The notes: generated by a model not told the origin, from the sequence alone. Counted from the first letter of the stretch, positions 13,885-56,557 are shown. The stretch: DNA of 64,000 nt from Candidatus Scatonaster coprocaballi (GCA_018064475.1 JAGHVD010000013.1:9206-73205), one strand, 5' to 3'. A program made the numbers and translations.

Positions 13885-13952
13885 GTGACTACGCCTAAAA
13901 AGGGTGGAGGTGCTTCTCGAGCCCCCGAGAATCATAAGTAAAGAAAGAAAAC

Positions 13953-34725: not shown

Positions 34726-34895
34726 GCCAGTAATTCTGAGTTTTCATCTTTTTTGTAAACAAGTACAAAGCCTGATTTATCTATGTTCTGAACGTGATAG
34801 AATGAGGGTATCGGTGGAGGTGCTTCTACCATATATCACCGATAAGACAAGATAGATCCAACAAAGATTTCGTTTATGAACATGGGAGACAGATT

Positions 34896-36368: not shown

Positions 36369-36443
36369 CTATCTATTCATTCCCTCGTGTCATCATGATG
36401 CGAGGGAATTTTTATGCCATTTGCAAGGCGGACCAAAGAAGAA

Positions 36444-36692
36444 TTACGCTTCTTCGGATGAATGATCATGCGCCAGAATAACCGGATTTTTAAGGTCAGT
36501 AAGTGGGGTGTCGCGTTTGGCATCATCGATGTAGTGCGTGAAGTGGGTCTTCCCTAAACCGAAATGATGGAGCGTCGCTTTGCTATCCCCTAGGTTGTTC
36601 GATTTGTGGAGTAAGTAAGCCAAAATCGTGAGCGCAATACTGACACCCATTACAAGTCCGAATAGTATAGATATAGCAATCTTCCAAGACAT
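36444..36692 (-). CDS. small single-pass membrane protein S1, partner of zinc-ribbon paralog P3
   Basis: TM helix, then LLHKSNNLGDSKATLHHF and NPVILAH. Strong RBS GGAAGGAGAA inside the 3' end of the upstream gene. Paralogous to 37753..38073. Confidence 0.6.
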   Translation of the reverse strand: MSWKIAISILFGLVMGVSIALTILAYLLHKSNNLGDSKATLHHFGLGKTHFTHYIDDAKRDTPLTDLKNPVILAHDHSSEEA

Positions 36693-36694
36693 AC

Positions 36695-37762
36695 TTACGC
36701 TTCTCCTTCCTGACGATTGTTGACATACTCATGTAGAGGGTTCGCGCAAGTGCGGCGGATGGAAGCGATGATTCTTCGAATCTTCCTTGCGCTGAGTATG
36801 ATGTACCCAATCACGACCAGAAAAAATGCTGTAATATATCCACTAAACGCGCCAAGTAGATCTCGCTTTTGAATGGAGAGAACACCCCAAGAAATAAAGA
36901 AGCAAATGATTGAGAAGCAGAGCGTCAGCGCGACCATAAGTAGCCAGAAACGCTTCTTGTCCCATGGCAAGCCGGCAACTACTTTGCCGGTTTGGCCATT
37001 TACGATGAGCGTATACGGCTGATCCTGATATCGGATCGTTAGAAACCATGCTGGAAGCAAGACAATCTTGAGTGGATCATATATTTCCGCACGGTAGCGT
37101 TCGGCGACGATAACTGGTTTCGGAGCCCCTTCGATGCTTTCTGCAATCGATCTGTTATAGGCATCTCGTGCTTGGGATTTTGCAATTTCCTTTGCATCTT
37201 CGATCTGCATGTCGGGCATATCCGCATAGTGCCCGACGAGATAGTTCTCATTAAAATCCTCCAGTTTCTCAAGATGGTAAGGCTCAATGCGCTGGGACAG
37301 CTCATTATCTATGACCTTCGAAGCATCCGTTGTCACATTCGGCATGGATGCGTAAGCGGAACGTAAGCGATAAGGATTGTCTTTCTGTGAAGCGCAGAAG
37401 AGTATGGAAGAATCGTATTCCACATGTGACACATAGTAGGGGATGTAGATACTCCGCAACTGTTCCGACTGGATTTTCTTGATTTCTTTCGGAATGAAGC
37501 ATCCTTGGTGGAGTCGCTCCGTGACAAGCTTCAGTGCTTTTTCCTTTGTCACGGTAAAAGGAAGGATAGAATCCGGCCGCCTCATTTTGCCAATACGAGA
37601 GAACAGAAGGGTAGGGTTTCCACAGTATATGCAGAACGTGGAAACTTCGGTATCTGTAACAGAAATCTCGGCGCCACAGGCACTGCAAGCATAGAAGTTT
37701 ACATCTAGAAACTCGTAGATAAGTCTTCCTGCACAATTTTTACATGTTTTATTCATTCCCAT
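36695..37762 (-). CDS. uncharacterised zinc-ribbon family protein, paralog P3 (355 aa), C-terminal double TM anchor
   Basis: CKNCAGRLIY...CSACGAEI and FCIYCGNP ribbons. Conserved blocks ILPFTVTKEKALKLV, SIYIPYYVSHVEY and LLPAWFLTIRYQDQPYTLIVNGQTGKV. Two C-terminal TM helices. Confidence 0.7.
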   Translation of the reverse strand: MGMNKTCKNCAGRLIYEFLDVNFYACSACGAEISVTDTEVSTFCIYCGNPTLLFSRIGKMRRPDSILPFTVTKEKALKLVTERLHQGCFIPKEIKKIQSEQLRSIYIPYYVSHVEYDSSILFCASQKDNPYRLRSAYASMPNVTTDASKVIDNELSQRIEPYHLEKLEDFNENYLVGHYADMPDMQIEDAKEIAKSQARDAYNRSIAESIEGAPKPVIVAERYRAEIYDPLKIVLLPAWFLTIRYQDQPYTLIVNGQTGKVVAGLPWDKKRFWLLMVALTLCFSIICFFISWGVLSIQKRDLLGAFSGYITAFFLVVIGYIILSARKIRRIIASIRRTCANPLHEYVNNRQEGEA

Positions 37763-38073
37763 CTTCTCCGATGACGTGCTTCATGGCTCTCTGATGATTG
37801 GAGAGCTTGTTCACTTTGCTTCTTGGCCGCTATTTCCTCCCGATGTGCGAGAATGATCGGGTTAGAAGTAGGGGGAAGCGGCGTGGAGTCCGGATTAATA
37901 TTGTTCCAGGATTTCCGCCCCTGAAAATGACCTTGATCCGAGAAATCAGCCAATCCCGCTCTTGAGTCACCAAAATTATTGGAACGTTCGAGCAAGGAAG
38001 CAACGATATAAAGCGCAAGACCAATGCCTAATGGGATGGCAAAAAGTAAAGCGAGTACCATTTCTACACTCAT
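37753..38073 (-). CDS. small single-pass membrane protein S2, partner of zinc-ribbon paralog P4
   Basis: Start at MSVEMVLALLF behind GGAGA. TM helix, then LLERSNNFGDSRAGLADF and NPIILAH. Paralogous to S1. Confidence 0.6.
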   Translation of the reverse strand: MSVEMVLALLFAIPLGIGLALYIVASLLERSNNFGDSRAGLADFSDQGHFQGRKSWNNINPDSTPLPPTSNPIILAHREEIAAKKQSEQALQSSESHEARHRRRWE

Positions 38074-38074
38074 G

Positions 38075-39271
38075 TTAGTCTCCTTTCTGTCTCTTACTGA
38101 CGAAAGAGATGAGAGAATTCTCTGTGACACGTGAAATAGAAGCCAAGACTTTGCGGATCTTACTGATACCAGCAGAGAATGCAGCCACAATGGCGGCTAT
38201 GATCAGGCCGATGAGTTTGCCTTTTGTTTTGCTGGAGTTCCGCGTGTGCTTGGCATGGACAAGTACATAGAATAGTCCATAGAAGATGAACGTGGCTGCT
38301 ACGGCAAATACGATGGAGAGTAACACGACCAAGGCGACAAAAATTGCTTTGTTCCATGGCATGCCGCCGACGGTTTTGCCGGTCTGACCATTTACGACGA
38401 TGGTGTATGGCTTATCTTTGTACCGGAGTGTCAAGAACCATGCCGGGAGCATGACCAGCTTCGGTTCCTCGTAGATCTCGCCTGCAAATACATTACGGTA
38501 GAAATGGGCATTCGAGCCAAATTCCGAGAGAACTTTCTCATCCACCGCTTCGTGTGCACGCTGCTTGGCCATTTCCTTCGCTTCGAGACGATTGATATCC
38601 GCTTGGTCAGAATAGAAACCAAGGAGATAGTTCTCGTTGAATTCTTCAAGTTCTTTCAGACGATAAGGCTCTACTCTTTGTGAAAGATTGTCAGAGAGCA
38701 TGGTGGAGGCATCCGTAGACACGTAGGGCATCGATGCGTATCCAGCGCGTATATGATAGTGCGTGCTACTTCTTTTGCCATTTGAAGTGGTCACGGCAAC
38801 GACTACTCTGGAATCCGTCTCAACCTTCGTTACATAGTACGGAATATAGATTCCACGCATCATCTCAGGTTCGAAGTTCTTGATGGACCTAGGTACGAAG
38901 AATCCCTTATTTAGATGTTCGCGTACGGATCGAAGCGCGTCTTCTTTGGAAATGGTAAAAGGCAGGATGGCATCCGGCTTCTTCATCTTTCCTACACGGG
39001 ATAAGATGACATTCGGATTTCCACAGTAGATACAGAAAGTCGACGCTTCTGTGTCGGTTACAGAAATCTCAGCACCGCACGAACTACAAGCGAAGATGTT
39101 CACATCGAGCATCTCGTCTTCTAGGTTGTCGGAATTCTTATCGTCTGTTGAAGAAGACAAGTTCTCATAGGCACTGATTGGAAAGATCGTGCCGCAGCTT
39201 CCACAAGACAGACCGTGCTTCTGGACATCATAGATGAGTCTGCCGGCGCAATTTTTGCAATTTCGAATCAC
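38075..39271 (-). CDS. uncharacterised zinc-ribbon family protein, paralog P4 (398 aa), C-terminal double TM anchor
   Basis: GTG start behind AGGAGGAT. CKNCAGRLIY...CGSCG and CSSCGAEI / FCIYCGNP ribbons. Conserved blocks ILPFTISKEDALRSV, GIYIPYYVTKVE and MLPAWFLTLRYKDKPYTIVVNGQTGKT. Two C-terminal TM helices. Confidence 0.7.
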   Translation of the reverse strand: MIRNCKNCAGRLIYDVQKHGLSCGSCGTIFPISAYENLSSSTDDKNSDNLEDEMLDVNIFACSSCGAEISVTDTEASTFCIYCGNPNVILSRVGKMKKPDAILPFTISKEDALRSVREHLNKGFFVPRSIKNFEPEMMRGIYIPYYVTKVETDSRVVVAVTTSNGKRSSTHYHIRAGYASMPYVSTDASTMLSDNLSQRVEPYRLKELEEFNENYLLGFYSDQADINRLEAKEMAKQRAHEAVDEKVLSEFGSNAHFYRNVFAGEIYEEPKLVMLPAWFLTLRYKDKPYTIVVNGQTGKTVGGMPWNKAIFVALVVLLSIVFAVAATFIFYGLFYVLVHAKHTRNSSKTKGKLIGLIIAAIVAAFSAGISKIRKVLASISRVTENSLISFVSKRQKGD

Positions 39272-39595
39272 TTTCTTATCCTCCTGAGTTGGAACACAGT
39301 GACTGTTCTTTTTAGTCAGAATGCTTCTTTAGGAATGAATTCCAATCGAATGATTCTATTATACAGTACTGCAAGTCGGATTCACGTGTCTTCTAATAGA
39401 AATATCCCGCGGATTGTGCAGAGAAGACAGGCAATAACAGAGGATAATTTGTTTGCTTCTGAAATCTTGAACCACAAGGAGAAATCCAAGTAGAAAACTT
39501 GAAACTTTGCCTGATTTCCATATAATAGATGTGTCGAATGATTAGATACATCTATTTCCATTTTACAATGTGAAATATACTTCAGGAGGAACATT

Positions 39596-41884
39596 ATGAT
39601 TTCATTACTTGATTCCGGCGCATACTTGCTGCACGGTACAGAGATCATTCCGGACAATCACGAAGCGGCTGCTGCGATTGCTGCGAAGACCGGTAAGTCG
39701 ATCACCAAAGAAGAAGCAAAGAAAGAGACCATTGCCTATGGTATTTTGCAGAGCCACAATACTTCCGGCAACATGGACAAGCTCAAGATCAAGTTTGATA
39801 AGCTGACCTCCCACGATATTACTTTCGTTGGTATTATCCAGACTGCTCGTGCTTCCGGACTGACGAAGTTCCCGGTTCCGTACGTGCTGACCAACTGCCA
39901 CAACTCTCTTTGTGCAGTCGGTGGTACCATCAACGAAGATGACCACATGTTTGGCCTTTCCTGTGCGAAGAAGTACGGTGGTGTATATGTACCACCGCAT
40001 CAGGCTGTTATCCATCAGTTTGCACGTGAGATGCTGGCCGGTGGCGGCAAGATGATCCTCGGTTCTGACTCCCACACCCGTTATGGTGCACTGGGTACCA
40101 TGGCAATGGGTGAAGGTGGTCCGGAATTGGTCAAGCAGCTTCTCTGCCAGACATATGACATCAACATGCCGGGTGTAGTGGCTATCTACCTCAAGGGTGC
40201 ACCGATGAAGGGCGTGGGTCCACAGGACGTAGCCCTTGCAATCATTGGCGCTGTTTTTGCCAACGGATATGTAAAGAATAAGGTCATGGAGTTTGTAGGT
40301 CCTGGTGTAGCATCCCTAAGTACTGACTTCCGTATCGGTGTGGATGTTATGACCACAGAGACCACCTGCCTGTCTTCCATTTGGCAGACCGATGACGAGG
40401 TGAAGGGCTTCTACGAGACACACGGACGTGTCGATGAGTACAAAGAACTCAATCCGGGCGAAGTGGCTTACTACGATGGCGTCGTAGAGATTGACCTGTC
40501 CACGATCAAGCCAATGATCGCTATGCCGTTCCACCCAAGTAACACCTATACGATCGAAGACCTGAAGGCGAACCTCGACGACATCCTGAACGATGTAGAG
40601 AAGCGTGCGAAAGTTTCACTTGGTGACGCTGTGGATTTCTCTCTGAGAAGCAAGGTAAGAAATGGTAAGCTGATGGTCGACCAGGGTGTAATCGCAGGAT
40701 GCGCCGGCGGTGGATTCGAGAACATCTGCGCAGCGGCAGATATCCTCAAGGGTAAGTACATCGGAAGCAACGAGTTTACATTGAACGTATATCCGGCTTC
40801 CATGCCTGTATATATGGAACTGGTTCGTAACGGTTGTGCAGCGACCATCATGGAGACAGGTGCCATCATCAAGACCGCTTTCTGCGGACCGTGCTTCGGT
40901 GCAGGTGATACACCGGCCAACAATGCATTCAGTATCCGTCACTCTACGAGAAACTTCCCGAACCGTGAAGGTTCCAAGCTCCAGAATGGTCAGATCTCTT
41001 CTGTTGCACTTATGGATGCACGTTCGATCGCCGCAACGGCAGCGAACCAAGGCGAGTTGACCGCAGCAACCGAATTCGACGGTGAGTTCGGCAAGTACAA
41101 GTACTTCTTCGATTCGAAGATTTATGAGAACCGCGTATTCGATTCCAAGGGCGTCGCAGATCCAGATCACGAGATCCACTTCGGCCCGAACATCAAGGAC
41201 TGGCCGGCTATGGTTGCTCTGACCGATAACCTGGTTCTGCGTTGTGTCTCCGAGATCCACGATCCGGTTACCACGACCGATGAGTTGATCCCGTCCGGTG
41301 AGACTTCTTCCTTCCGTTCCAACCCGCTGGGTCTGGCTGAGTTTACACTGAGCCGTAAGGATCCGGAGTATGTGGGCCGTGCGAAGGAGATTCAGAAGAT
41401 CGAGAAGAGCCGTGAAGCAGGCGAGAAGCTCTGCGAGCTTTACCCGGAATTCCACGAAGTGATGGCGACGATCAAGAAGGATTTCCCAGATGTTTGTGGC
41501 AAGAACACCGGTATCGGTTCTACCATCTTCGCTGTGAAGCCAGGTGACGGTTCCGCCCGTGAGCAGGCTGCTTCCTGCCAGAAAGTGCTCGGCGGATGGG
41601 CGAACATTGCAAACGAGTACGCAACCAAGCGTTACAGAAGCAACCTCATCAACTGGGGTATGTTGCCGTTCCTCATCAAGGAGGGAGAACTCCCGTTCAA
41701 GAAGATGGATTACATCTTCATCCCAGGTATCCGTGAAGCGGTCGAGAACAAGACGGAGATCATCAAGGCCTATGCAGTCGGCGCAGACGGACTCAAGGAG
41801 TTCGAGCTGACACTGGGTGAACTGACCGATGAAGAGCGTCAGATCATCCTCAAGGGTTGCCTCATCAACTACAACCGCGTGTAA
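39596..41884 (+). CDS. aconitase-family Fe-S hydro-lyase (putative aconitate hydratase)
   Basis: Cluster-ligand/active-site motifs [15 protein letters not shown] and [15 protein letters not shown]. 762 aa single chain. RBS AGGAGGA. Confidence 0.75.
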
Positions 41885-41913
41885 GTCAAATAAATCATTT
41901 GTAATCTAGAAGC

Positions 41914-41962
41914 AGGGATTGCCTCAAAAGTGAATTCTTCACAAAGAGACAATCCCTTTTCT
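41914..41962 (+). terminator. structured terminator-like hairpin downstream of the aconitase-family gene
   Basis: agggattg ... caatccct outer stem with inner gtgaa ttc ttcac hairpin, followed by tttt. Confidence 0.45.
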
Positions 41963-42092
41963 ACGCTCTAGGACGAACTCGGCCTGCGGTTCGTAATCCG
42001 CCTTGCTAATCCACCCGTCGCATGCCCCCAGCACTTGAGCAGAACTCCAGATTAACCAAAACTTGCTTAAATCACTTGCATTTAGTCGCGTT

Positions 42093-42199
42093 TCAGCTCA
42101 TCAGCCTTGAGACGTGGAGCATGTCGTAAATTTCATGAGACCCTTCGCCATAGTCGCCCAATGGATTCTCATCACCGGAGGTGAACAGAATAGACTCGT
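42093..42199 (-). pseudogene. remnant of the 3' end of an alpha/beta-hydrolase gene (divergent paralog of 45530..46474)
   Basis: The minus-strand translation is RKNESILFTSGDENPLGDYGEGSHEIYDMLHVSRLMS. It aligns with KNKPILLISGDEDPVGDYGEGPQEIYDKL of the intact hydrolase. An in-frame stop lies immediately upstream, so only about 36 codons survive. Confidence 0.45.
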
Positions 42200-42356
42200 T
42201 CTTTCTCACTTATTCCCCAGACAAGTCTTTCTTCCGAGGAAGAAACCTTGAGCTTGATGCTTGAAGCGCTGTACAGAATGAGACAAAAAGTAAAGAAGAC
42301 TTGCATTTTGAAAAAAAAAAAATAGAATTATAGAAGTTTGATTTGGGAGGATGACT

Positions 42357-43214
42357 ATGAACAAGAGAATTAAGAATGCGGTGATATGTGGCTTGGTAGC
42401 GTTAGTTACTTTTGTGAACTCAGTTTCGATGATGAAATCACAGAAACAGGCAGCGACGACGACTTACAATCAAGACAAAGTGAAAAGTAACATTTACGCA
42501 CAAGCGAAAGTTGTATGGGATATAGAAGCCGATATTACAGTGAGTGAAAAGAGCGATAAAACAGTTAGTTATAAGAAAAATACTTGGTATCAGGGTATGC
42601 CATATACTCAGTTAGCAGATTATTCGCTGAAAGACTTTGCTTCCTGTTGTTGTATGCATAATGTGCAACGTAGTAAGGTGACTGAAACTAACCTGCTGAG
42701 TAGAAGTTATTTAGTTCAAATTGATCTCAGAAAGTTTGATGGTTGCAAAAATCTAAGAATAGGCAACGACTGTTCGACTGCTGTAGCTGTAGCATGGAGA
42801 TCCTGTAACAATTCTTTACGGATTGAAGATATTGATACTTCCACATTCTTAAGTTGTGCAAAGAGTGGTAGTTATAGCACCTACCATTTGAAAACAGTTG
42901 GGGGCTATAGTATTGGTTCATATACTGATACAAAATCATTTTTGAGCAAAAATGAAAATAAGAGTATAATAAAAAACTGTTATGCTAAACTCAAAATTGG
43001 TGATGCCGTATTCTATAGATCTGGTGGCAAAGGGCACGCTATGATGGTAGTGGCTACCGGAAGCAATTGTGTTTATGTAATTGAACAGTGTGGCCTCAGC
43101 GATAAAAGAACAGTACAACGAACATCATGGGAAGTTGAGAAAAAGTACACATACGATGATCTTATTAAAAGTGGATATCTACCAATTTATAGTACTGATG
43201 TGAGGAAGTCATGA
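42357..43214 (+). CDS. hypothetical secreted protein, possible papain-fold cysteine peptidase/amidase
   Basis: AT-rich. N-terminal signal peptide. Candidate Cys (NDCSTAVAVAW) and His (GGKGHAMMVVATG) pair. RBS GGGAGG. Confidence 0.45.
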   Translation: MNKRIKNAVICGLVALVTFVNSVSMMKSQKQAATTTYNQDKVKSNIYAQAKVVWDIEADITVSEKSDKTVSYKKNTWYQGMPYTQLADYSLKDFASCCCMHNVQRSKVTETNLLSRSYLVQIDLRKFDGCKNLRIGNDCSTAVAVAWRSCNNSLRIEDIDTSTFLSCAKSGSYSTYHLKTVGGYSIGSYTDTKSFLSKNENKSIIKNCYAKLKIGDAVFYRSGGKGHAMMVVATGSNCVYVIEQCGLSDKRTVQRTSWEVEKKYTYDDLIKSGYLPIYSTDVRKS

Positions 43215-45517
43215 GCGAGAGCAACATGAAACGAAAATTAGCCGTTGGGCTAGTCATCATTATGCTATTGGGTATATTGCCTAGTTGCTCACTCTCTCAG
43301 AGCAAGCGTGAGGTCGGAAATGGGGACTCGAGTAAGGAAATGTCACTCTCTATTTCTCAAAGCAATCTTTCCGAGCAGTATTTTCAAGCCGTAGATATGA
43401 TAAGTGGCGTGGACCAAGCAGATACTGCACACAGAATTCTGGGTGCCGCTTTGTCAGCAAACGAGGAGTTTCTCTTTGTTTCATCTGACGAGTGTATCTC
43501 GGTCGAACGGTATGATCAAGAGGGATTGTTTATTTCTAGTTTCTCACAAGAGACTCCATATGTGTATGACAATGGAGGTCGAGGTTTCTACGAAGAAGGA
43601 CGACTGTTTTTTGCCGGATTCTTTGGGCCGATGATGGATGTGTATGAAGTGAATCTGGAGAAAGAGGAAATGAGTAACATCATCCATGTTGATTTGTCGA
43701 AGGATGTTGAGCAACAAGGCTTTTTTCTTAGAGTAATTGGTTTTCGTCATTCTGTTGTATATGCGATGGTGTTGAATGACTTTGGACAAGTAATGATTGG
43801 CTACAGCATTGAAACAGGAGAAGAAGTTTTCCGAACGAAATCGGGTATATCTGGAAACAAGTTCTTCTGGATTCAGGATCAGTTATATGCCTATAATACT
43901 GAAAGAATGCCTAAACAACTTTGGCAAGTTGATGCTGATGGGCAAGGCTCACAAATTCAGAACGAGCAGGACAATGTGAAGTGGGAGGAGTTCTGTTTTG
44001 AAAATGGGAGACAGTTAGTCAGGGATACGGATGGTATTTGGTTCTTTGATGAACGGGGCGTACTTACAAATCTTGTTTCGTTTGCGAATTCCGAGGTGAA
44101 TAGTACGATGCTACTTTCGAATGCTTGTTTTGCAGTTTCTAATCAACTTGACCGCGTGGTACTCTTTGATATCGAAGGAAGAGCGAGTCTTCTGTTTCCT
44201 GGGGAGGGCGACGCGAAAGATAAACAGACGTTGACGCTTGCTTGTGTGGATGCCTCGGGTTCAGAATGGTTGAATTGGGCAATCTATAAGTTCAATAAAG
44301 AGAATGAAGATTACAGAATCGTCTTGAAAGATTATTATTGTTCTATTGATGAGACGAAGTACTTGGATGAAGATGGTGATGTCGATTACTCTGCGGTATA
44401 TGATGCTTCGGAAGAATTGCTTTGGAAGGATGTGGTTTCCGGCCAAGGACCGGATCTGATTCTTCGAGAGAATGGAATCGGGGATAAGATAGGTTCTGCT
44501 TATTTGGACAATTGTGGTTTTATTCAGGATTTGTACCCCCAGTGGTGTGAAGAGAGCGAGGAGTGGAAACAACAGTTTATGTCCCCACTATTTACGCAGG
44601 TTCAGCAACAAGGCAGACTGATGAGTGTGCCAATCGGTATGATGCTCATGTCGGTTGAACTCAATTCGAGATGTGCATTGAGCGAGTGTGGAACGTACAA
44701 AGATACATATAACTATCTTGAAAGTGCATCTGATATTCGCTTCCTTACATGGACGACGAAGGAAGCGTACTTGAAGAAGATGCTTGCGATGGATATGGAT
44801 AGTTTTGTAAATCGAGATCTCAATCAAGCAAATTTCGATAGCGAAGCATTTCAGTACTTACTTTGTCTTTGTAACGAGTATTGTATGTCAAACGAAGAGG
44901 CTGAGATGATTTACGATGAATCAATCATGTTATTCCGAGAGTCGGTAGATGGAGAAGGAGGGAACAACTACCTGACTTATACATATCGACCGATAACAAA
45001 TACTGAGAAACGCAAGAGTGAAACAGGTGTAGTGAGTGGGTATCCTATGGGCCACGAGTGTGACGCATGTGTCGATTATTCCTATCTGATTTCTATTTCA
45101 TCTGCATGCCGGAATAATGTGGCGGCATGGGACTTTATCAAGTACATGTTAAGTGAAGAAGTCCAAAGATACACACCGGATTGGCTTGGTTGCCCTTATT
45201 CACCAATGGTGCGGCGAGATGTTCTTTCTGAGATGATGGATTGCTATGAACATCCGGAAGATCATATGGATTATTGGGATGCTGGTGGTGAATGGGATAG
45301 TGATGTTCTAGGACTGAACAGCTATTCAGAAGATGAGATACAAAGTTTCTTGGATTTCTTTGATTCAACACATCACTTTTACTATTATGATATAGAAATC
45401 ATCGATATAGTGTTGGAAGAATCTGCCCATTATTTCTCAGGAAATAAAGATATGGATAGTGTTGTGCAAACGATAAACAATCGGGTCCAAGTGGTATTGG
45501 ACGAACGTGATTCGTAA
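43211..45517 (+). CDS. large hypothetical lipoprotein with a solute-binding-protein-like C-terminal region
   Basis: Lipobox LLGILPSCS. The C-terminal AAWDFIKYMLSEEVQ block is typical of family-1 extracellular solute-binding proteins. AT-rich. Distant paralog of 56558..58951. Confidence 0.5.
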   Translation: MSESNMKRKLAVGLVIIMLLGILPSCSLSQSKREVGNGDSSKEMSLSISQSNLSEQYFQAVDMISGVDQADTAHRILGAALSANEEFLFVSSDECISVERYDQEGLFISSFSQETPYVYDNGGRGFYEEGRLFFAGFFGPMMDVYEVNLEKEEMSNIIHVDLSKDVEQQGFFLRVIGFRHSVVYAMVLNDFGQVMIGYSIETGEEVFRTKSGISGNKFFWIQDQLYAYNTERMPKQLWQVDADGQGSQIQNEQDNVKWEEFCFENGRQLVRDTDGIWFFDERGVLTNLVSFANSEVNSTMLLSNACFAVSNQLDRVVLFDIEGRASLLFPGEGDAKDKQTLTLACVDASGSEWLNWAIYKFNKENEDYRIVLKDYYCSIDETKYLDEDGDVDYSAVYDASEELLWKDVVSGQGPDLILRENGIGDKIGSAYLDNCGFIQDLYPQWCEESEEWKQQFMSPLFTQVQQQGRLMSVPIGMMLMSVELNSRCALSECGTYKDTYNYLESASDIRFLTWTTKEAYLKKMLAMDMDSFVNRDLNQANFDSEAFQYLLCLCNEYCMSNEEAEMIYDESIMLFRESVDGEGGNNYLTYTYRPITNTEKRKSETGVVSGYPMGHECDACVDYSYLISISSACRNNVAAWDFIKYMLSEEVQRYTPDWLGCPYSPMVRRDVLSEMMDCYEHPEDHMDYWDAGGEWDSDVLGLNSYSEDEIQSFLDFFDSTHHFYYYDIEIIDIVLEESAHYFSGNKDMDSVVQTINNRVQVVLDERDS

Positions 45518-45529
45518 TGGTTGCTGTAT

Positions 45530-46474
45530 TCATCCTGGGGATACTTTACGGGCGAAGTTGTCGATGAGATAGGCGGCTAGACGCTCATAGACGGCGTCGC
45601 GACCAATCTCGTTATGAGGTTCGTGACGCATGCCGTGACGGATGTCGAGCGTGACCTTGTCCTGACCTGCGGCCTGAAGTTTGTCATAGATCTCCTGCGG
45701 TCCTTCTCCATAGTCACCGACCGGATCCTCGTCGCCGGAAATTAGAAGGATTGGCTTATTCTTCGGAATCGAGCCGTACCACTCATCACTGTTGCATGCG
45801 CGAAGCATGTGGAACAGGTCGATATACGCGGAGTGGGTGAAAGTAAATGTGCAGAACGGGTCGCCAGAATACTTCTTGACGATCTCTTTGTCATAGGAGA
45901 GCCAGTCCGAAGCGGAGAACGGCTCGGCGATACGCTTCATATACTGTTTGTTGATGGTTCTTGAGATCAGCTTGGCGGGCTTCTTCTCTCGTACGAAGAA
46001 GCGTTGGAATTTCGCAAGCGCGATAAGTAGGCCGACCAGAGAATTGTTGCGGGCTGTACCGGAGAGGATAATGCCGTCACAATCGTCGCCGTACTGGGTA
46101 AACCAGTTCCGCGTGATGAAAGAACCCATAGAATGCCCAAGTACGATATATGGCTTCCCAGGATAGAGGCTCATCATGATGCGGTGAAGCTTCTCCACAT
46201 CTTCCACGAGATATCTGTCCCCGTCGTTCTTGCCGAAGTAGCCGAACGTATCGTGCTCGCCGACACTTTGACCATGTCCGAGGTGATCTTCGCCACAAAC
46301 CACGAAGCCCTTGTCGGCGAGATGTTCGGCTAGTTCCTCATAACGTCCCATGTATTCGCACATGCCGTGAACGATCTGCACGACGCCGCGCGCTGGAACG
46401 GAAGGAGCCCAGGTGAAATATGTGATTTCGGTTGTTCCATTACTGCTGGTAAAAGTACTCTTCTGCATGGCCAT
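45530..46474 (-). CDS. alpha/beta hydrolase (lysophospholipase / monoacylglycerol lipase-like)
   Basis: Nucleophile elbow GHSMGS. 314 aa. HGxxEYxGRY-type N-terminal block. Confidence 0.75.
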   Translation of the reverse strand: MAMQKSTFTSSNGTTEITYFTWAPSVPARGVVQIVHGMCEYMGRYEELAEHLADKGFVVCGEDHLGHGQSVGEHDTFGYFGKNDGDRYLVEDVEKLHRIMMSLYPGKPYIVLGHSMGSFITRNWFTQYGDDCDGIILSGTARNNSLVGLLIALAKFQRFFVREKKPAKLISRTINKQYMKRIAEPFSASDWLSYDKEIVKKYSGDPFCTFTFTHSAYIDLFHMLRACNSDEWYGSIPKNKPILLISGDEDPVGDYGEGPQEIYDKLQAAGQDKVTLDIRHGMRHEPHNEIGRDAVYERLAAYLIDNFARKVSPG

Positions 46475-46748
46475 GGATAAGTCCTCTTTCGTGTTCGTAG
46501 CCTGTGCCTCGCACGGACTGATATTGTTTACATTATACCCTTAATACAGAGTAACCTCTATATTTTTCAGAAGGAATCGTTCTCGAGATATGCGAAGACG
46601 AACGCTCGAAGAGAAAGCAAGTGCTTTTCCCGACGATACAGCGGAATAGAACTTCTATTTTGGTAAAACCATCGCTCGAACTTTCTTGACGGTCATGTGA
46701 CCGTGTGATAAGATTGTGCCAAGATTACGATTGAAAGGAGGATGGATC

Positions 46749-47276
46749 ATGGGTGTGATGCTTCCCGGTACATTTATCGAAGTTTCACCGGAGAAATTGA
46801 AGAACGTGGATGAGATCCTTTCGCCAATGTTTCTTCTGGAAGGTATGCAGCTTCGACAGATCACGCAGTTGCTCGGTGTGGAAGCGCACACGGTACAGAA
46901 TTGGGTGAAGCGCGGATTCGTAGAATCACCGGTTCGCAAGATGTACGACCGAGATCGTTTTGTCAGGCTGGCGTTGCTGAATTACTTGAAAGACGTTTTC
47001 TCGTTGGAAGGAATTCTCGAGATACTGAGCATGGCCGGGCACCAGGATAACGAAGTGTACAAAGCGTTCTGCGCATTGATGGCACTTGCTCCGGTAGACC
47101 CGATCCGAGCGGAGACGAAACTGAATGACATCATCGATCGGGCGGTGGAAAATGGTGATTTCAATTACCAGCAGACATCGAAGCAACAGGTCGCGAAGAT
47201 GATGACGATCCTGTACACCGCACATTTATCAATCGTAATGAAGAAGGAAGCCGAACGGCTCTTGCAAGAGATTTGA
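46749..47276 (+). CDS. DUF1836-like HTH domain protein
   Basis: ...MQLRQITQLLGVEAHTVQNWVKRGFVESPVRKMYDRDRFVRLALLNYLKDV... fits the DUF1836 signature as I recall it. Start at MGVML behind AAAGGAGG. Confidence 0.45.
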   Translation: MGVMLPGTFIEVSPEKLKNVDEILSPMFLLEGMQLRQITQLLGVEAHTVQNWVKRGFVESPVRKMYDRDRFVRLALLNYLKDVFSLEGILEILSMAGHQDNEVYKAFCALMALAPVDPIRAETKLNDIIDRAVENGDFNYQQTSKQQVAKMMTILYTAHLSIVMKKEAERLLQEI

Positions 47277-47289
47277 AAAGAGGAACATT

Positions 47290-48336
47290 ATGAAATTCTT
47301 AATGGATTGGTTTGAAGCGTTGAATCTGCCTGAACAGATTTTTGCCTGCATCGCAGTTGCATTTAGCGTTCTTCTGATTTTACAGTTTGTACTGCTTATG
47401 ATCGGCGCGGCGTCCCACGCAGGCGATATGGATGGTCACGATATGGGTGGCGGCGATGGTCACGACTTCGGTCACGGCCACGACATGGGTCACGATGTCG
47501 GTCATGACATGGGCCATGATATTGGACATGATATTGGACACGATGTCGGCCACGACTTTGGCCATGATGTCGGCCATAGTATCGGACATGGCGATTTCGG
47601 TCAACCACATGGTGACTTCGGTCACGACGCGGGTCACGATTTCGGCCATGATGTGGGTCACGATATTCATCAAGAAATATTGACGCATGATGGATCTTAC
47701 GATTACAATCATGATATGGACGCCGGCCACGATCACATCGGCCATGTCGCGCACGAGTTTGCCGAGATTCAGGACGGAATCGTGGTGGATGTTCATAGCG
47801 GTGATATCTACTTGGCTGAGGCGCTCCCTCATGTACCGATGGTCAACGGACCGGACGTAGGTATTCCGGATCAGGATCTTCCGGATGGAAGAACATACGT
47901 GGACAGAGCAGACCATGTACATGGTTCGGGATTCAGACTCTTTACGATGCAGGGTATCATTGCATTTTTCTGCATCTTCGGTTGGTCGGGACTCCTGTTC
48001 CTGAAGGGCGGATTACCCGTCTGGGGCGCAAGCCTTCTTGCATTTGTCTGCGGCTTTGCCGCACTGTTCCTGATGGGACTGGCGCTTTGGGGCATGCAGA
48101 AGATCCAATCGGATGGAACATTGAATGTGAAATACGCGCTGGGCCGTTCCGGAGAAGTGTACATTCCGATTCCGGGACAGCGCAAAGAACCCGGCAAAGT
48201 GATGGTAGAAGTCCAGGACCAGCTGATGGAATTTGAGGCGGTCACGGACGAGGATGAGAAGATCCCCACCGGTACACAGGTGACGGTGATCGGTATAACA
48301 AAGGGTACAACACTGATTGTGACCAAACATAGTTAA
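47290..48336 (+). CDS. NfeD-like membrane protein (stomatin/flotillin partner) with an internal His/Asp-rich (GHDx)n repeat
   Basis: N-terminal TM. About 20 consecutive G-H-D-[MVIF] units. A second TM pair. C-terminal OB-fold NfeD block (...GRSGEVYIPIPGQRKEPGKVMVEVQDQLMEFEAV...TQVTVIGITKGTTLIV). Sits immediately upstream of a flotillin gene. Confidence 0.65.
   Translation: MKFLMDWFEALNLPEQIFACIAVAFSVLLILQFVLLMIGAASHAGDMDGHDMGGGDGHDFGHGHDMGHDVGHDMGHDIGHDIGHDVGHDFGHDVGHSIGHGDFGQPHGDFGHDAGHDFGHDVGHDIHQEILTHDGSYDYNHDMDAGHDHIGHVAHEFAEIQDGIVVDVHSGDIYLAEALPHVPMVNGPDVGIPDQDLPDGRTYVDRADHVHGSGFRLFTMQGIIAFFCIFGWSGLLFLKGGLPVWGASLLAFVCGFAALFLMGLALWGMQKIQSDGTLNVKYALGRSGEVYIPIPGQRKEPGKVMVEVQDQLMEFEAVTDEDEKIPTGTQVTVIGITKGTTLIVTKHS
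47434..47665 (+). repeat. imperfect 12-bp tandem repeat encoding the (G-H-D-x)n tract
   Basis: ggtcacgatgtc / ggtcatgacatg / ggccatgatatt ... repeated about 19 times in frame. Confidence 0.7.
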
Positions 48337-48355
48337 TTATAGGAGGAAGTTGAAA

Positions 48356-49876
48356 ATGCCATTTGAAGTAATTTGCTTAATTGTTGTGATTGCTGTTCTG
48401 GTATTTACGTTGTTTCTGATTTTCTTGTCTAGGTACAGAAAATGTCCGTCTGACCGTATCATGGTCATCTACGGTAAAGTTGGTAAGAATGCCGACGGAA
48501 CCGCACGCTCATCCAAGTGTATTCATGGTGGTGCGGCATTCGTATGGCCGGTCATTCAGTCCTATCAGTATTTGGACTTGACCCCAATCTCCATCGCTGT
48601 CGATCTTCGTTCTGCACTTTCCCGTCAGAACATCCGTATCGACGTACCGTCTATCTTTACAGTAGGTATTTCGACAGAACCCGGTGTCATGCAGAACGCT
48701 GCTGAGCGTCTCCTCGGCCTCAAGCTTTCTGAGATTCAGGAACTTGCGAAGGATATCATCTTCGGTCAGCTCCGTCTGGTTATCGCGACCATGGATATCG
48801 AGGAGATCAACACCGACCGTGATAAGTTCCTCGAGGCTGTTTCCAGAAACGTGGAGACAGAGTTGAAGAAGATCGGTCTTCGTCTGATCAACGTAAACGT
48901 TACAGATATCAGCGATGAGTCCGGATACATCAGCGCACTTGGTAAGGAAGCTGCTGCAAAGGCAATCAACGACGCGAAGAAGAACGTTGCGGAGAAAGAA
49001 AGAGACGGTTCTATCGGTGAGGCTTTGGCCCAGAAGGATCAGCGTATCCAGGTTGCATCTGCAAACTCCATGGCTATCCAGGGTGAGAACCAGGCAAAGA
49101 TTGAAGTTGCAAATTCTGAGGCTGTACGTCGTGAGAAAGCCGCTGAGGCGATGAGACTTGCTACCGCAGCTGAGAAAGTTCAGGCAGCTAAAGCACTTGA
49201 AGAAGCATACGCAGCAGAGAAGGAAGCTGAGCTTTCCCGTTCCGCTCGTGAGAAGGCTACCCTCGAAGCCGACGTTATCGTTAAGGCTGAGATCAGTAAG
49301 CGAGAGATGGAACTTGCTGCGGAGGCACAAGCTGAGAAGATCAGAAGACAGGCAGCCGGTGAAGCAGACGCGATCTACGCGAAGATGGAAGCTGAAGCTC
49401 GTGGTATGCAGGAGATCTTGACCAAGCAGGCTGCGGGTTTCGAGAAGATCGTTGCAGCAGCCGGTGGTAATGCTAAGGATGCAATGATGCTCATGTTGGC
49501 AGACAAGATGGAGCAGCTCATGAAGATCCAGGTAGAAGCAATCCGCGATCTGAAGATCGACAAGGTTACTGTTTGGGACAGCGGCGCAGGTGCCGGTGGA
49601 GATGGCAAGAGCTCTACCGCAAACTTCATCTCCGGTCTCATGAAGAGTGTCCCGCCGATGAACGAGATTTTCGAGATGGCTGGTATGCAGTTGCCGGATT
49701 ACCTCGGTAAGAAGATGGGAGACTCTGCAGAAGTTGCAGAAACTGCTGAACCGGAGAAGACCGAAACTTATGAAGCGAAGGCTGACGTAGCCGTTGCACC
49801 GGTAGTAGACACCGATTCGGAAACAGGAGCTGAGGTAGTGAGTGCCAAGGATATTACTCCTTATAACGGGTATTAA
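48356..49876 (+). CDS. floT: flotillin-like SPFH/band-7 protein (FloT/YuaG-like)
   Basis: N-terminal membrane hairpin. SPFH domain. Long Ala/Glu-rich coiled coil (AEAMRLATAAEKVQAAKALEEAYAAEKEAEL). About 507 aa. ATG 48356 behind AGGAGG. Confidence 0.8.
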   Translation: MPFEVICLIVVIAVLVFTLFLIFLSRYRKCPSDRIMVIYGKVGKNADGTARSSKCIHGGAAFVWPVIQSYQYLDLTPISIAVDLRSALSRQNIRIDVPSIFTVGISTEPGVMQNAAERLLGLKLSEIQELAKDIIFGQLRLVIATMDIEEINTDRDKFLEAVSRNVETELKKIGLRLINVNVTDISDESGYISALGKEAAAKAINDAKKNVAEKERDGSIGEALAQKDQRIQVASANSMAIQGENQAKIEVANSEAVRREKAAEAMRLATAAEKVQAAKALEEAYAAEKEAELSRSAREKATLEADVIVKAEISKREMELAAEAQAEKIRRQAAGEADAIYAKMEAEARGMQEILTKQAAGFEKIVAAAGGNAKDAMMLMLADKMEQLMKIQVEAIRDLKIDKVTVWDSGAGAGGDGKSSTANFISGLMKSVPPMNEIFEMAGMQLPDYLGKKMGDSAEVAETAEPEKTETYEAKADVAVAPVVDTDSETGAEVVSAKDITPYNGY

Positions 49877-49972
49877 TGTGACGGACTTGCTTCATTGAAG
49901 CACGAAAACTTAGCAAATGTGACACAAGGAGTTGCTCTTCGGAGCAGCTCCTTTTCACATGGAAAGAATGGA

Positions 49973-51076
49973 TCAGTGACGCATCCGAAGGGTAAGAAGG
50001 ACCAGTAGCTTGATGGTCTCGTTGATGCGGGCGCGGGACTGACCATCCATCGAACGGGTCGCGTCTACGATATAGCCGACGCGTGTAGCCCAGGAGTCCT
50101 CCGGGCTGAAGAGGTTGTTGGCGCCGGATGAGGTGGCAATGCGATAGAGCATCTCGACAAAGGCTTCGCGTTCTTCGTAGTTGATGCTGCCTAGCCACTG
50201 ATTTACTGCGGCAATACGAGTCTGTGCACTGCGGTTCCATTCTGGAACATAATCGAAGTCATCGGTTCCGACTTCCCAGGTAAAAGGACTGTGTTGCGTG
50301 AGCCAGAGTGCGTGGTTGGCGATGAAGCGTGTGCCGGGTGCGCTCTGGAGAAGCATGCCGACGAAAGAGGCGGAAGGTACGAGGTGGTATACGCGATCTG
50401 CGATGGCCTTATAGGCCTCGGTCTCGGATAGGTTGAAAGAGAAGCCCGGACCGTCGAAGGAATAGACACCTAAGATTCGTTCTTTGATGGAGTCTTTGCA
50501 TTCTGTCGCCGCGTAGATGGACAGGTTGCCGCCTTTGGAATGTCCGCCGATATAGAACCGCGTGGAAGGGGCCATCTCCTGTGCGAGGTAATTCAGATAG
50601 CGAGAAGCTTGTTCCTGAGAAGGGATCGGATATTTATAAGCGAGCTGGAAGTCTTCTTTCCAGCCGATGAGGGTGCCGTCGGTGCCGCGAAAAGCGACGT
50701 AGCAAATGTTGTCCGGCATATGGAAGCATACCGCGGCGAACTGGATCTCTTCCGATGCTTTTGTATGGGCACAAAGGTGAGAGACGGAGACATTTCTGAA
50801 GCGGCGACTCAGTCGAAGCGTGTCGATGAGCTTCATGTTCTTGGACGTGTCGGCTGCATATTGGCCGAAGAGTGGCATTTCGTCCGTTCTTGGCATCTCG
50901 TGTAGGAACATGGAATCGGAAAGACGATAAGGCCATTCCTGTGTCCAAATATTCGGAAGCAGATATTCCCACTGGAAGTAGGTGGCTTCGGCGTAAATGA
51001 GTGCGTCGATGGCATTGAAAGGAAACTCATCGAAAGTGCGCTGTTCATTCCGTGCATACTCTAGGATCGACTTCAT
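49973..51076 (-). CDS. DUF2974 (Mbeg1-like) lipase-fold alpha/beta hydrolase
   Basis: YVAFRGTDGTLIGWKEDF and GGHSKGGNLSIYAA are lipase class 3-like motifs. Start at MKSILEY behind AAAGGAGA. The longer listed ORF lacks an RBS. Confidence 0.6.
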   Translation of the reverse strand: MKSILEYARNEQRTFDEFPFNAIDALIYAEATYFQWEYLLPNIWTQEWPYRLSDSMFLHEMPRTDEMPLFGQYAADTSKNMKLIDTLRLSRRFRNVSVSHLCAHTKASEEIQFAAVCFHMPDNICYVAFRGTDGTLIGWKEDFQLAYKYPIPSQEQASRYLNYLAQEMAPSTRFYIGGHSKGGNLSIYAATECKDSIKERILGVYSFDGPGFSFNLSETEAYKAIADRVYHLVPSASFVGMLLQSAPGTRFIANHALWLTQHSPFTWEVGTDDFDYVPEWNRSAQTRIAAVNQWLGSINYEEREAFVEMLYRIATSSGANNLFSPEDSWATRVGYIVDATRSMDGQSRARINETIKLLVLLTLRMRH

Positions 51077-51289
51077 CGTTGGCGTGTCTCCTTTCTCTGT
51101 TCGAATCGATTCATAACAAGTACATTCTATCACAATGGAAAGAAAGGCATGATGATGAAAAAACCTAACGAAACCTTCATAGTTTTTTAATAGATGCAGA
51201 AGTAAAATAAACATGAGCGTGTGAAGGGGGGAAGTCACATGCAAGGAACAAGAGGATGATTAGCTTGATGATTTGGGAAGGAGCCCGAT

Positions 51290-56247: not shown

Positions 56248-56557
56248 CGTGCAACTAATATTCTGCGCCGCCTAGATCCCCGAAGTTTCCGTATAATTTC
56301 CACGCTTCTGCCCATCCGTGGAAAAAATATGGAAAAACTCCGGCCGCGCCGTAAAAAATCGCAAAAAACTTCAAACTACGCTTATATCAAAGGTTAACAC
56401 AAAGCCTTCTAAGAAGAGCAAGAAGTTATTCCGAAAATGACCAGACTATTCGTTCATTGAAAATATTAATTTCTAGGTGACCGAAATGTCATTTTTCTTT
56501 TACAGTGCATTTGTACAATGATGGTAATAAACGATGTTTGATTCGGAGGTACATACG

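What the first reader, a model, noticed from the sequence alone, without database searches (positions are those of the whole stretch)
42093..45530. Second AT-rich island bounded by an intact alpha/beta-hydrolase gene and a displaced remnant of a hydrolase 3' end
The segment 42.25-45.52 kb is visibly AT-rich. It begins with an A12 run, then a 287-aa secreted protein with a candidate Cys/His papain-fold pair, and a 768-aa lipoprotein with an SBP-like C-terminus. Immediately left of it (42093..42199, minus strand) is a ~36-codon fragment that translates to ...KNESILFTSGDENPLGDYGEGSHEIYDMLH... . This is homologous but not identical to the C-terminus of the intact hydrolase at the right border (KNKPILLISGDEDPVGDYGEGPQEIYDKL). 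A pattern of an intact gene plus a divergent orphaned copy of its 3' end on the far side of foreign DNA is the classic footprint of site-specific integration into the 3' end of a gene. Alternatively it reflects disruption of a second hydrolase paralog by the insertion.
Basis: partly seen in the sequence, partly recalled or inferred. Interest (0 to 1): 0.55.

Follow-up and report, generated by a model that had tools for sequence, protein, structure and literature searches.

The report
Gene islet with orphaned hydrolase relic
A 3.6-kb AT-rich, two-gene insert (a secreted cell-wall-hydrolase-like enzyme and a large lipoprotein) sits in a frequently rewritten gap between two core genes of a horse-gut Clostridiales bacterium, next to a dead 37-codon piece of an older hydrolase gene; this looks like ordinary recombinational gene turnover, not integrase-driven insertion.

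Summary
The sequence facts hold. Window 42.25-45.52 kb is AT-rich (GC 0.37-0.42; flanks 0.52). It encodes a 285/287-aa secreted protein with an NlpC/P60 fold and a 763/768-aa lipoprotein. A 37-codon hydrolase relic lies at 42108-42218(-). It matches residues 233-269 of the intact 314-aa Hydrolase_4 gene at 45530-46474(-).

Relatives show the segment is a lineage-specific gain. In three related species the aconitase and hydrolase genes converge with only 109-219 bp between them. Three other species hold unrelated cargo in the same gap.

Site-specific integration is not supported:
- There is no att-like repeat; the longest exact match is 8 nt, and overall nt identity is 65%.
- No recombinase gene lies in the 64 kb.
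- The intact gene's 3' end is host-like and closest to its orthologue along its whole length.
- The relic lacks the last ~45 codons.

The relic diverged mostly at third codon positions and later lost invariant residues, including the presumed catalytic Asp. It sits where the hydrolase's 3' part lies in empty-site relatives.

My best reading is recombinational replacement ("C-terminal displacement"): homology on one side, an illegitimate joint on the other, and an older hydrolase allele's 3' part left orphaned. This is an ordinary kind of event, well documented here. Interest is low to moderate.

The parts
39596..41884 (+). Aconitase-family hydratase gene (762 aa). This is the left core flank. 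Homology with all relatives stops one base after its stop codon.
   Evidence: Pfam Aconitase 307 bits. blastn against L001, L172 and L179 ends at 41885/41886.
41914..41965 (+). Probable intrinsic terminator of the aconitase gene: a 12-nt stem with 11/12 pairs and a 20-nt loop, followed by TTTTCT.
   Evidence: Inverted repeat I20 and the sequence itself. Each relative has a different hairpin plus T-run at this place. The terminator scan did not list it because its loop exceeds 8 nt.
41972..41995 (-). Weak, non-significant trace that may be the decayed catalytic-His motif of the relic's parent gene (YEPQAE against HEPHNE). It is in another reading frame.
   Evidence: Best local alignment to the L179 hydrolase 3' region scores 21, against a shuffle mean of 16.7 (sd 2.0); 15 of 300 shuffles reach it. 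The profile HMM does not detect it.
42108..42218 (-). Hydrolase relic: 37 codons matching profile positions 233-269 of the Hydrolase_4 family. An in-frame stop lies at 42210-42212. The ORF as listed is 42093-42209.
   Evidence: GC3 is 0.615, which is host-like. It has replacements at family-invariant positions: D250N, V252L and P241S.
42301..42328 (+). Candidate promoter of p287: TTGCAT, a 16-nt spacer that contains the A12 run (42311-42322), then TAGAAT. An RBS GGGAGG lies at 42344-42349.
   Evidence: Sequence. The A-run is 12 in the window, 11 in L081 and 8 in L180. The consensus scan did not list it because the -35 hexamer matches only 3 of 6.
42351..43214 (+). p287 (more likely starts at 42357, giving 285 aa): a secreted or membrane-anchored protein with a C-terminal NlpC/P60-like cysteine hydrolase domain.
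43211..45517 (+). p768 (763 aa if it starts at 43226): a lipoprotein (…ILPSC) with an uncharacterised N-terminal half and an SBP-like C-terminal half. It is always paired with a p287 homologue.
   Evidence: Homologous pairs occur in L163, L166-169 and L170/171 at 27-37% identity. A distant paralogue lies in the window at 56534-58951.
45518..45538 (.). Right junction. There are 12 nt between the two stop codons. The last three codons (SPG) plus the stop of the intact hydrolase are absent from the 311-aa empty-site alleles.
   Evidence: Alignment with L179 and C-termini of orthologues. Every 314-aa-allele contig that extends past the stop shows the island there.
45530..46474 (-). Intact alpha/beta hydrolase (Hydrolase_4, annotated lysophospholipase). 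This is the right core flank.
   Evidence: Pfam PF12146 151 bits. NCBI name MBQ0011412.1. Closest to the L179 orthologue along its whole length, 82-88% nt.

Best explanation
The gap between the convergent aconitase and Hydrolase_4 genes is a turnover hotspot in this clade of gut Clostridiales.

In the lineage of the window (Candidatus Scatonaster coprocaballi) the gap received a foreign, AT-rich two-gene module. The module encodes a secreted NlpC/P60-fold hydrolase and an SBP-like lipoprotein. The same gene pair circulates in other gut and rumen Clostridia.

The module did not enter through an integrase and att sites. It most likely arrived by recombinational replacement. Homology on the hydrolase/merR side anchored the incoming DNA, which carried the module and probably the present hydrolase allele. 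The other end joined illegitimately inside the hydrolase gene that then stood next to aconitase. This resembles homology-facilitated illegitimate recombination, or the 'C-terminal displacement' described for rhs and T6SS loci.

That event deleted the 5' two-thirds of the old gene. Its 3' part was left orphaned beside the aconitase terminator. It has since decayed until only the most conserved motif, around the presumed catalytic Asp, is recognisable.

Shown: the gain, the empty sites, the absence of att and integrase, the relic's homology and its decay. Inferred: the replacement mechanism, the relic's identity as a former resident allele, and the module's function (cell-wall or peptide hydrolysis at the cell surface with a partner binding lipoprotein).
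For: Empty sites:
- L179 (flanks 89-94% nt identical, full synteny on both sides) has 109 bp between the two stop codons.
- L172 has 219 bp and L177 has 131 bp.

Other cargo in the same gap:
- L174 holds a 174-aa membrane protein.
- L001 holds two lipoproteins.
- L175 holds four genes, including a serpin and a GH127 enzyme.

The island is present in every contig of the window's own species that reaches that side of the hydrolase (98% identity, L180-L189).

The module is foreign and portable. The pair recurs in three other unrelated contexts (L163; L166-169; L170/171). Its GC is 0.37-0.40 everywhere, below both local flanks in all of them.

No att or integrase. No tRNA. No phage, plasmid or PHROG match.

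The relic's parent was a functional gene:
- Differences from the intact gene fall 9/4/23 on codon positions 1/2/3.
- Its GC3 is host-like.

Later decay: replacements at three positions that are invariant or nearly so in 118 aligned homologues, including the presumed catalytic Asp.

Position and orientation: the relic is 237 nt from the aconitase stop. The homologous segment in L179 is 252 nt from it, on the same strand.

Affinity of the relic:
- Among 120 homologues its best matches are the resident orthogroup.
- At the 18 sites where the window and L179 alleles differ, it agrees with L179 at 11 and with the window at 3.

The hydrolase gene is more diverged from L179 at third positions (0.367) than both neighbours (aconitase 0.136, merR 0.189). 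Its ratio to aconitase is 2.7, against 1.1-1.5 in 14 other species pairs. This is consistent with an imported tract that includes the hydrolase gene.

Precedent for orphaned 3' pieces left by such replacement: PMC5361080 and references therein.
Against: - No donor sequence is known, so the illegitimate joint and the anchor cannot be shown.
- The relic is more diverged from L179 at third positions (15 of 34) than a simple 'old native allele' predicts (about 7-10). The 11:3 split is only p = 0.06 on 102 nt.
- Third-position divergence between the window and L179 is a mosaic (0.03 to 0.53 per gene). The high value for the hydrolase gene is therefore not a clean outlier.
- The 45 codons expected between the relic and the aconitase terminator are not detectable.
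- Spacer sequences are unalignable among all relatives, so insertion and replacement cannot be told apart from the spacers.
Confidence: 0.55

Rival explanations
1. The relic is what remains of a second, paralogous or previously acquired Hydrolase_4 gene. That gene occupied the gap as earlier cargo or as a tandem duplicate. The arrival of the two-gene module, or a deletion linked to it, truncated it.
For: - The third-position-skewed divergence (9/4/23) shows a long independent history as a functional gene.
- Third positions differ from the intact gene at 68% of sites, more than between orthologues of sister species.
- The gap demonstrably holds changing cargo.
- No protein in the 5.8-billion-sequence collection shares three 5-mers with the relic.
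Against: - None of seven related loci has a second hydrolase in the gap.
- The relic's best matches are the resident orthogroup, not another subfamily.
- Its distance from aconitase and its orientation equal those of the resident gene in empty-site relatives.
Confidence: 0.25
2. The relic came in as part of the imported DNA. It would be a scrap of the gene that neighboured the module in the donor genome, already truncated there, and it has no history at this locus.
For: - The relic abuts the AT-rich DNA directly.
- The whole interval from the aconitase stop to the hydrolase stop is non-homologous to every relative.
- In other genomes the module is AT-rich next to flanks of GC 0.42-0.50. The relic's host-like GC3 therefore does not exclude a donor origin.
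Against: - None of the three other genomic contexts of the module (six loci) has a hydrolase next to it.
- A scrap of the same family, in the same orientation and at the same distance from aconitase as the resident gene, would be a coincidence.
- The relic shares six third-position states with L179 that no other orthologue has.
Confidence: 0.12
3. One reading: an integrase-carrying element integrated site-specifically into the 3' end of the hydrolase gene. It supplied a replacement 3' end and displaced the native one. The integrase has since been lost or lies elsewhere.
For: - The geometry fits: intact gene, foreign DNA, then an orphaned same-strand piece of the gene.
- Relatives have empty sites.
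- The last three codons plus the stop of the intact gene are linked to the island.
Against: - No shared core: 8 nt is the longest exact run, and identity is 65%.
- No flanking repeats.
- No recombinase in 64 kb.
- The island holds only two cargo genes.
- The intact 3' end has host-like composition and is uniformly closest to the L179 orthologue.
- The relic stops 45 codons short of the gene end.
Confidence: 0.06

Closest known systems
C-terminal displacement and orphaned 3' gene pieces at rhs, CDI and T6SS effector loci, attributed to homologous recombination on one side and illegitimate recombination on the other (Jackson et al. 2009; Kirchberger et al. 2017, PMC5361080, read)
   Same: An intact gene is followed by newly acquired DNA and then by an orphaned, diverged, same-strand 3' piece of an earlier allele. 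There is no integrase and no att site. The locus is rewritten repeatedly in related strains.
   Different: The gene here is an ordinary alpha/beta hydrolase, not a polymorphic toxin. The cargo is not an immunity gene and is transcribed towards the hydrolase. There is a single relic, which has lost its own end. The mechanism is inferred, with no donor sequence.
Homology-facilitated illegitimate recombination during natural transformation or conjugation (de Vries & Wackernagel 2002; Prudhomme et al. 2002; Meier & Wackernagel 2003, all as cited in PMC5361080; PMC3240628 abstract)
   Same: It explains one-sided homology, an abrupt non-homologous joint, and replacement of resident DNA between the anchor and the joint.
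   Different: It has been demonstrated experimentally only in a few species. Nothing is known about DNA uptake in this uncultured organism. Microhomology at the joint cannot be checked.
Integrase-mediated genomic islands and prophages inserted in the 3' ends of tRNA, tmRNA or protein genes (own knowledge)
   Same: The geometry matches: a gene restored at one junction and a displaced 3' piece at the other, with empty sites in relatives.
   Different: The defining parts are missing: integrase, identical att core repeats, and a displaced piece running to the gene's end.
NlpC/P60 (C40) gamma-D-glutamyl-diamino-acid endopeptidases such as LytE, CwlO, MepS and YkfC, and CHAP amidases
   Different: p287 matches no curated Pfam, NCBIfam or PHROG model. 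Family members reach CHAP, Amidase_6 or NLPC_P60 only at E 1e-3 to 1e-4. It has an extra ~100-residue N-terminal domain. Its partner is a ~760-aa lipoprotein with no ABC permease genes nearby.
Elevated diversity of core genes that flank variable surface-structure loci through hitch-hiking with recombinational replacement, for example gnd beside the E. coli O-antigen cluster (own knowledge)
   Same: The hydrolase next to the variable gap is more diverged at silent sites than its neighbours.
   Different: This rests on one species pair and a mosaic background. It is not a population sample.

Membership tests
Integrase-mediated island integrated in a gene's 3' end | Tyrosine or serine recombinase gene at or near an island end | tested here: not met
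   The island holds only p287 and p768. No recombinase or transposase domain was found in any sizeable ORF of the 64-kb window.
Integrase-mediated island integrated in a gene's 3' end | Identical or near-identical att core as direct repeats at both junctions | tested here: not met
   No flanking repeat family was found. Relic against the intact 3' region: 65% identity over 102 nt, longest exact run 8 nt.
Integrase-mediated island integrated in a gene's 3' end | Displaced piece runs from the crossover to the gene's natural stop, and the intact gene's 3' end is element-derived | tested here: not met
   The profile covers only positions 233-269 of 312. The intact 3' end has GC3 0.575 and 83-85% identity to L179, like the rest of the gene.
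Integrase-mediated island integrated in a gene's 3' end | Empty target site in relatives | tested here: met
   L179, L172 and L177 have 109-219 bp between the two stop codons.
Recombinational replacement / C-terminal displacement (HFIR-like) | Orphaned same-strand 3' piece of an earlier allele beyond the new DNA, at the position of the former gene | tested here: met
   The relic is 237 nt from the aconitase stop, against 252 nt in L179, on the same strand. Its codon-position pattern shows a formerly functional gene.
Recombinational replacement / C-terminal displacement (HFIR-like) | Imported tract with a homologous anchor on one side (recombination breakpoint in or beyond the intact gene) | tested here: inconclusive
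   Third-position divergence is 0.367 for hyd against 0.136 (acn) and 0.189 (merR). The ratio of 2.7 is unique among 15 pairs. The background is mosaic (0.03-0.53).
Recombinational replacement / C-terminal displacement (HFIR-like) | Illegitimate joint with microhomology to the donor | not testable with these tools
   No donor sequence was found. Module homologues are at most 41% identical.
NlpC/P60 superfamily (p287) | Papain-like alpha+beta fold with a conserved Cys-His-polar triad | tested here: met
NlpC/P60 superfamily (p287) | Match to the curated family model PF00877 (or CHAP PF05257) above the gathering score | tested here: not met
   p287 has no Pfam hit at E<=0.01. Of 32 relatives, 7 touch CHAP, 4 Amidase_6 and 2 NLPC_P60, with best E-values of 2e-4 to 1.4e-3.
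Bacterial solute-binding protein family 1 lipoprotein (p768) | SBP_bac_1 / SBP_bac_8 domain above threshold, and a lipobox | tested here: inconclusive
   PF01547 scores 19 bits against a cut-off of 26, on residues 603-652 only. Distant homologues P0003-P0008 carry PF01547/PF13416. A Cys follows the signal-like segment in all homologues inspected.
Hydrolase_4 / lysophospholipase-type alpha/beta hydrolase (intact gene and relic) | Family model match; GxSxG nucleophile; Asp and His motifs | tested here: met
   Intact gene: PF12146 151 bits, GHSMG at 113, invariant D250, and the RHEPHNE motif. The relic matches only the Asp-motif segment, with D250N.
Phase-variable promoter (homopolymer in the -35/-10 spacer) | Homopolymeric tract inside the promoter spacer whose length varies between strains | tested here: inconclusive
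   The layout is TTGCAT-16 nt-TAGAAT with the A-run inside. Run lengths are 12, 11 and 8 in three assemblies. The promoter itself is only a weak consensus match, and assembly error in homopolymers is not excluded.

The most novel reading that the evidence does not exclude
The aconitase/hydrolase gap could be a dedicated exchange site. Surface-protein cassettes would be swapped there by serial displacement anchored on the hydrolase gene, leaving fossil hydrolase ends. The present cassette would be an undescribed, widely shared two-gene surface system (an NlpC/P60-like hydrolase plus a ~760-aa SBP-like lipoprotein). Its expression would be switched on and off by the length of a poly-A tract in the promoter spacer.
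Probability: 0.12. Interest if true: 0.5.

Novelty: new member of a known kind. Interest (0 to 1): 0.3.

Why it matters
The main value is as a clean, well-controlled example. An 'intact gene plus orphaned gene piece' footprint can arise without any integrase, through recombinational turnover in a gap between convergent core genes. That is a caution for automated island and att-site calling in metagenome-assembled genomes.

Two secondary points follow:
- It defines an uncurated, recurrent gene pair of gut Clostridia, an NlpC/P60-fold protein with a large SBP-like lipoprotein. That pair could be studied for cell-wall remodelling or peptide scavenging.
- It flags a possible poly-A promoter switch.

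None of this challenges current understanding.

Tried and rejected
- Searching the relic alone against the 5.8-billion-protein collection found no candidate sharing three 5-mers.
- I looked for more of the parent gene around the relic with tblastn at permissive settings, a 120-sequence profile HMM on all six frames, and global and local DNA alignment to L179. Only the 37-codon core is significant. A possible His-motif trace at 41972-41995 is at chance level.
- I expected aconitase-anchored scans of genome and metagenome collections to give island-free relatives. Only L001 kept synteny. The useful comparators came from hydrolase homologues and cluster members instead.
- The single-sequence AlphaFold model of p287 was useless, with pLDDT 32. 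Foldseek against the PDB gave only sub-threshold CHAP and NlpC hits. A profile search of PDB sequences gave spurious antibody hits.
- There were no matches to phages, plasmids, PHROGs, Rfam or tRNAs.
- I considered that the intact hydrolase might be a 5'-native, 3'-foreign chimera. Sliding identity to L179 is flat at 82-88%, so I rejected that.
- I considered a recent duplication of the resident 3' end. Third positions differ at 68% of sites, so I rejected that as well.

Full report
**1. What is in the sequence**

The window is chromosomal DNA of a gut Clostridiales bacterium. The three proteins of the region are identical or nearly identical to MBQ0011410-12 of a MAG named Candidatus Scatonaster coprocaballi, from horse faeces.

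- Between 42.25 and 45.52 kb the GC content falls to 0.35-0.43. The window mean is 0.487 and the neighbouring genes are at 0.52-0.53.
- The listed ORFs are all present:
  - aconitase-family gene, 39596-41884(+)
  - 38-codon ORF, 42093-42209(-)
  - p287, 42351-43214(+)
  - p768, 43211-45517(+)
  - Hydrolase_4 alpha/beta hydrolase, 45530-46474(-)
- The small ORF is truly homologous to the intact hydrolase.
  - tblastn gives 59% identity over 34 residues, E 2e-8 against the six-frame window.
  - A profile of 120 homologues finds this one spot in the 536 nt searched: profile positions 233-269 of 312, E 2e-10, window 42108-42218.
- The piece is not the hydrolase's C-terminus. The last ~45 residues, including the catalytic-His motif, have no significant counterpart.

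**2. The two island genes**

- p287 has no curated family. It belongs to a family with 130 cluster representatives.
  - C141 (in GNDCS), H229 and Q246 are invariant in that family.
  - With that alignment AlphaFold gives pLDDT 88.
  - Some family members touch CHAP, Amidase_6 or NLPC_P60 weakly.
- p768 starts with a signal-like segment ending ILPSC.
  - It has a sub-threshold SBP_bac_1 hit.
  - Its distant homologues of 750-840 aa carry SBP domains.
- The two genes form a conserved pair.
  - A p287 homologue (38-41% identity) immediately precedes a ~760-aa p768 homologue (27-37%) in three other, mutually unrelated contexts: L163, L166-169 and L170/171.
  - The pair has GC 0.37-0.40 in all of them, lower than the local flanks.
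- By inference, the pair works at the cell surface. A cell-wall or peptide amidase would act with a binding or tethering lipoprotein. The B. subtilis dpp-ykf operon is a loose precedent (own knowledge).

**3. Relatives**

Aconitase-anchored scans gave only one syntenic relative, L001. It has two unrelated lipoprotein genes in the gap. Hydrolase homologues and cluster members gave the decisive loci.

| Locus | Relation to the window | Content of the acn/hyd gap |
|---|---|---|
| L179 (GCA_045598705.1) | flanks 89-94% nt identical, synteny on both sides | empty, 109 bp |
| L172 | hyd 84% aa identical | empty, 219 bp |
| L177 | hyd 72% aa identical | empty, 131 bp |
| L174 | hyd 81% aa identical | 174-aa membrane protein |
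| L175 | hyd 70% aa identical | four genes |
| L001 | hyd 77% aa identical | two lipoprotein genes |

- No cargo is shared between species.
- Every contig of the window's own species (98% identity; 314-aa hydrolase allele) that extends past the hydrolase stop shows the island there.
- Homology with L179 stops one base after the aconitase stop. It resumes at the codons just before the hydrolase stop. The island-linked allele has three extra codons, SPG.
- The segment is therefore a lineage-specific gain in a gap that is rewritten often.

**4. Test of the integration reading**

- The relic and the corresponding part of the intact gene are 65% identical over 102 nt. The longest exact run is 8 nt, and the best blastn stretch is 30/38.
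- No direct or inverted repeats bracket the island.
- No recombinase or transposase domain occurs in the island or in any sizeable ORF of the window.
- There is no tRNA, no Rfam element, and no phage, plasmid or PHROG similarity.
- The intact gene's 3' end has host-like GC3 (0.575). It is as close to L179 as the rest of the gene, 82-88% in every 150-nt window. The AT-rich DNA therefore did not supply it.
- The relic does not reach a gene end.
- The defining features of site-specific integration were tested and not met. Only the geometry and the empty sites fit.

**5. What the relic is**

- Differences from the intact gene fall 9, 4 and 23 on codon positions 1, 2 and 3 (chi-square about 16 by my own arithmetic). 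Most of the divergence therefore accrued while the parent was a functional gene.
- A recent duplicate of the resident 3' end is excluded, because third positions differ at 68% of sites.
- The relic's GC3 (0.615) is host-like.
- It then decayed. An in-frame stop lies at 42210-42212. It has replacements at positions that are invariant or nearly so in 118 aligned homologues: D250N (the presumed catalytic Asp, by analogy with the Ser-Asp-His triad of this family), V252L and P241S.
- Among 120 homologues the best matches are the resident orthogroup.
- Against L179 the relic is 72.5% identical, with differences of 8/5/15 by codon position.
  - At the 18 sites where the window and L179 alleles differ, it sides with L179 at 11 and with the window at 3 (p = 0.057).
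  - Six of those are states found in no other orthologue.
- It lies 237 nt from the aconitase stop on the minus strand. The homologous segment of L179 lies 252 nt from it.
- Third-position divergence between the window and L179, by gene:

| Gene | p3 |
|---|---|
| aconitase | 0.136 |
| zn398 | 0.188 |
| merR-like | 0.189 |
| flotillin | 0.21 |
| nfeD | 0.24 |
| hydrolase | 0.367 |

- The hydrolase/aconitase ratio is 2.7, against 1.1-1.5 in 14 other species pairs.
- The background is a mosaic, however. Other genes range from 0.03 to 0.53.

**6. Most likely history**

- Incoming DNA carried the module and probably the present hydrolase allele.
- It recombined through homology on the hydrolase/merR side and joined illegitimately inside the hydrolase gene then standing next to aconitase.
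- That removed the old gene's first ~232 codons and orphaned the rest.
- This is the pattern described as C-terminal displacement or homology-facilitated illegitimate recombination at rhs and T6SS loci (PMC5361080; PMC3240628).

What is shown: the gain, the hotspot, the absence of integration hallmarks, and the relic's functional past and later decay.

What is inferred: the anchor, the joint, and that the relic is a former resident allele.

Weak points:
- No donor is known.
- The relic is somewhat too diverged from L179 for a simple 'old native allele'.
- The statistics rest on 102 nt.

Rivals: a relic of a second paralogue or of earlier cargo (0.25), a scrap carried in from the donor (0.12), and site-specific integration (0.06).

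**7. Verdict**

- The integrase/att mechanism is not supported.
- The case is an ordinary instance of accessory-gene turnover between convergent core genes. It comes with a tidy fossil, an uncurated NlpC/P60-like protein and lipoprotein pair, and a possible poly-A promoter switch as side interest.

Noticed in passing
window 42301-42328 (A-run 42311-42322); L081 and L180 at the same place: The A-run lies inside the spacer of a candidate p287 promoter (TTGCAT, 16 nt, TAGAAT). Its length is 12 in the window, 11 in L081 and 8 in L180, giving spacers of 16, 15 and 12 nt. This could be a phase-variable promoter, or homopolymer assembly noise.
   Followed up: partly
window 42956/42957 inside p287; contig ends of L181, L182, L183, L185, L188: In five other metagenome assemblies of the same species, p287 is cut at exactly this point. 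It is joined to an unrelated sequence (TTTATCCCAAGTTTTCTGTGAAGAACCAAATT), after which every contig ends. This suggests a repeated element, possibly an IS, or another rearrangement disrupting the gene in part of the population.
   Followed up: partly
L180 10898-13203 (equivalent to window 43211-45517): In this 98%-identical strain p768 is called as two ORFs (469 + 268 aa). It appears frameshifted or interrupted. Together with the p287 disruptions, this suggests the module is dispensable.
   Followed up: no
window ~12100-14000: This is the 'first' AT-rich islet (GC 0.38-0.41). It has two plus-strand ORFs (202 and 262 aa) with no Pfam or PHROG match. They lie between convergent threonine synthase (10586-12088, +) and release factor RF3 (14049-15686, -). 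The layout is the same as in the studied islet.
   Followed up: partly
window 34098-53164 compared with L179: Silent-site divergence from the closest relative is a strong mosaic. It is 0.03 for the 355-aa zinc-ribbon-like gene (36695-37762), 0.14-0.24 for most genes, 0.32 for PPK2, 0.37 for the hydrolase, and 0.47-0.53 for the Mbeg1-like and EAL genes. This indicates frequent recombination between these lineages.
   Followed up: partly
window 56534-58951: An 805-aa protein is a distant paralogue of p768's C-terminal half (21% identity over 344 residues). The large SBP-like lipoprotein type is therefore present more than once in this genome.
   Followed up: no
L146 5434-8796: In a more distant Lachnospiraceae-like contig, a hydrolase of the same family (42% identical) lies next to aconitase. 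There it is upstream and divergent, not downstream and convergent.
   Followed up: no
window 36695-39271: Two tandem paralogous genes (355 and 398 aa, 43% identical) have N-terminal zinc-ribbon-like motifs and C-terminal membrane segments. They have no curated family above threshold. Two further weak paralogues lie at 21.9-22.9 kb and 25.8-26.2 kb.
   Followed up: no
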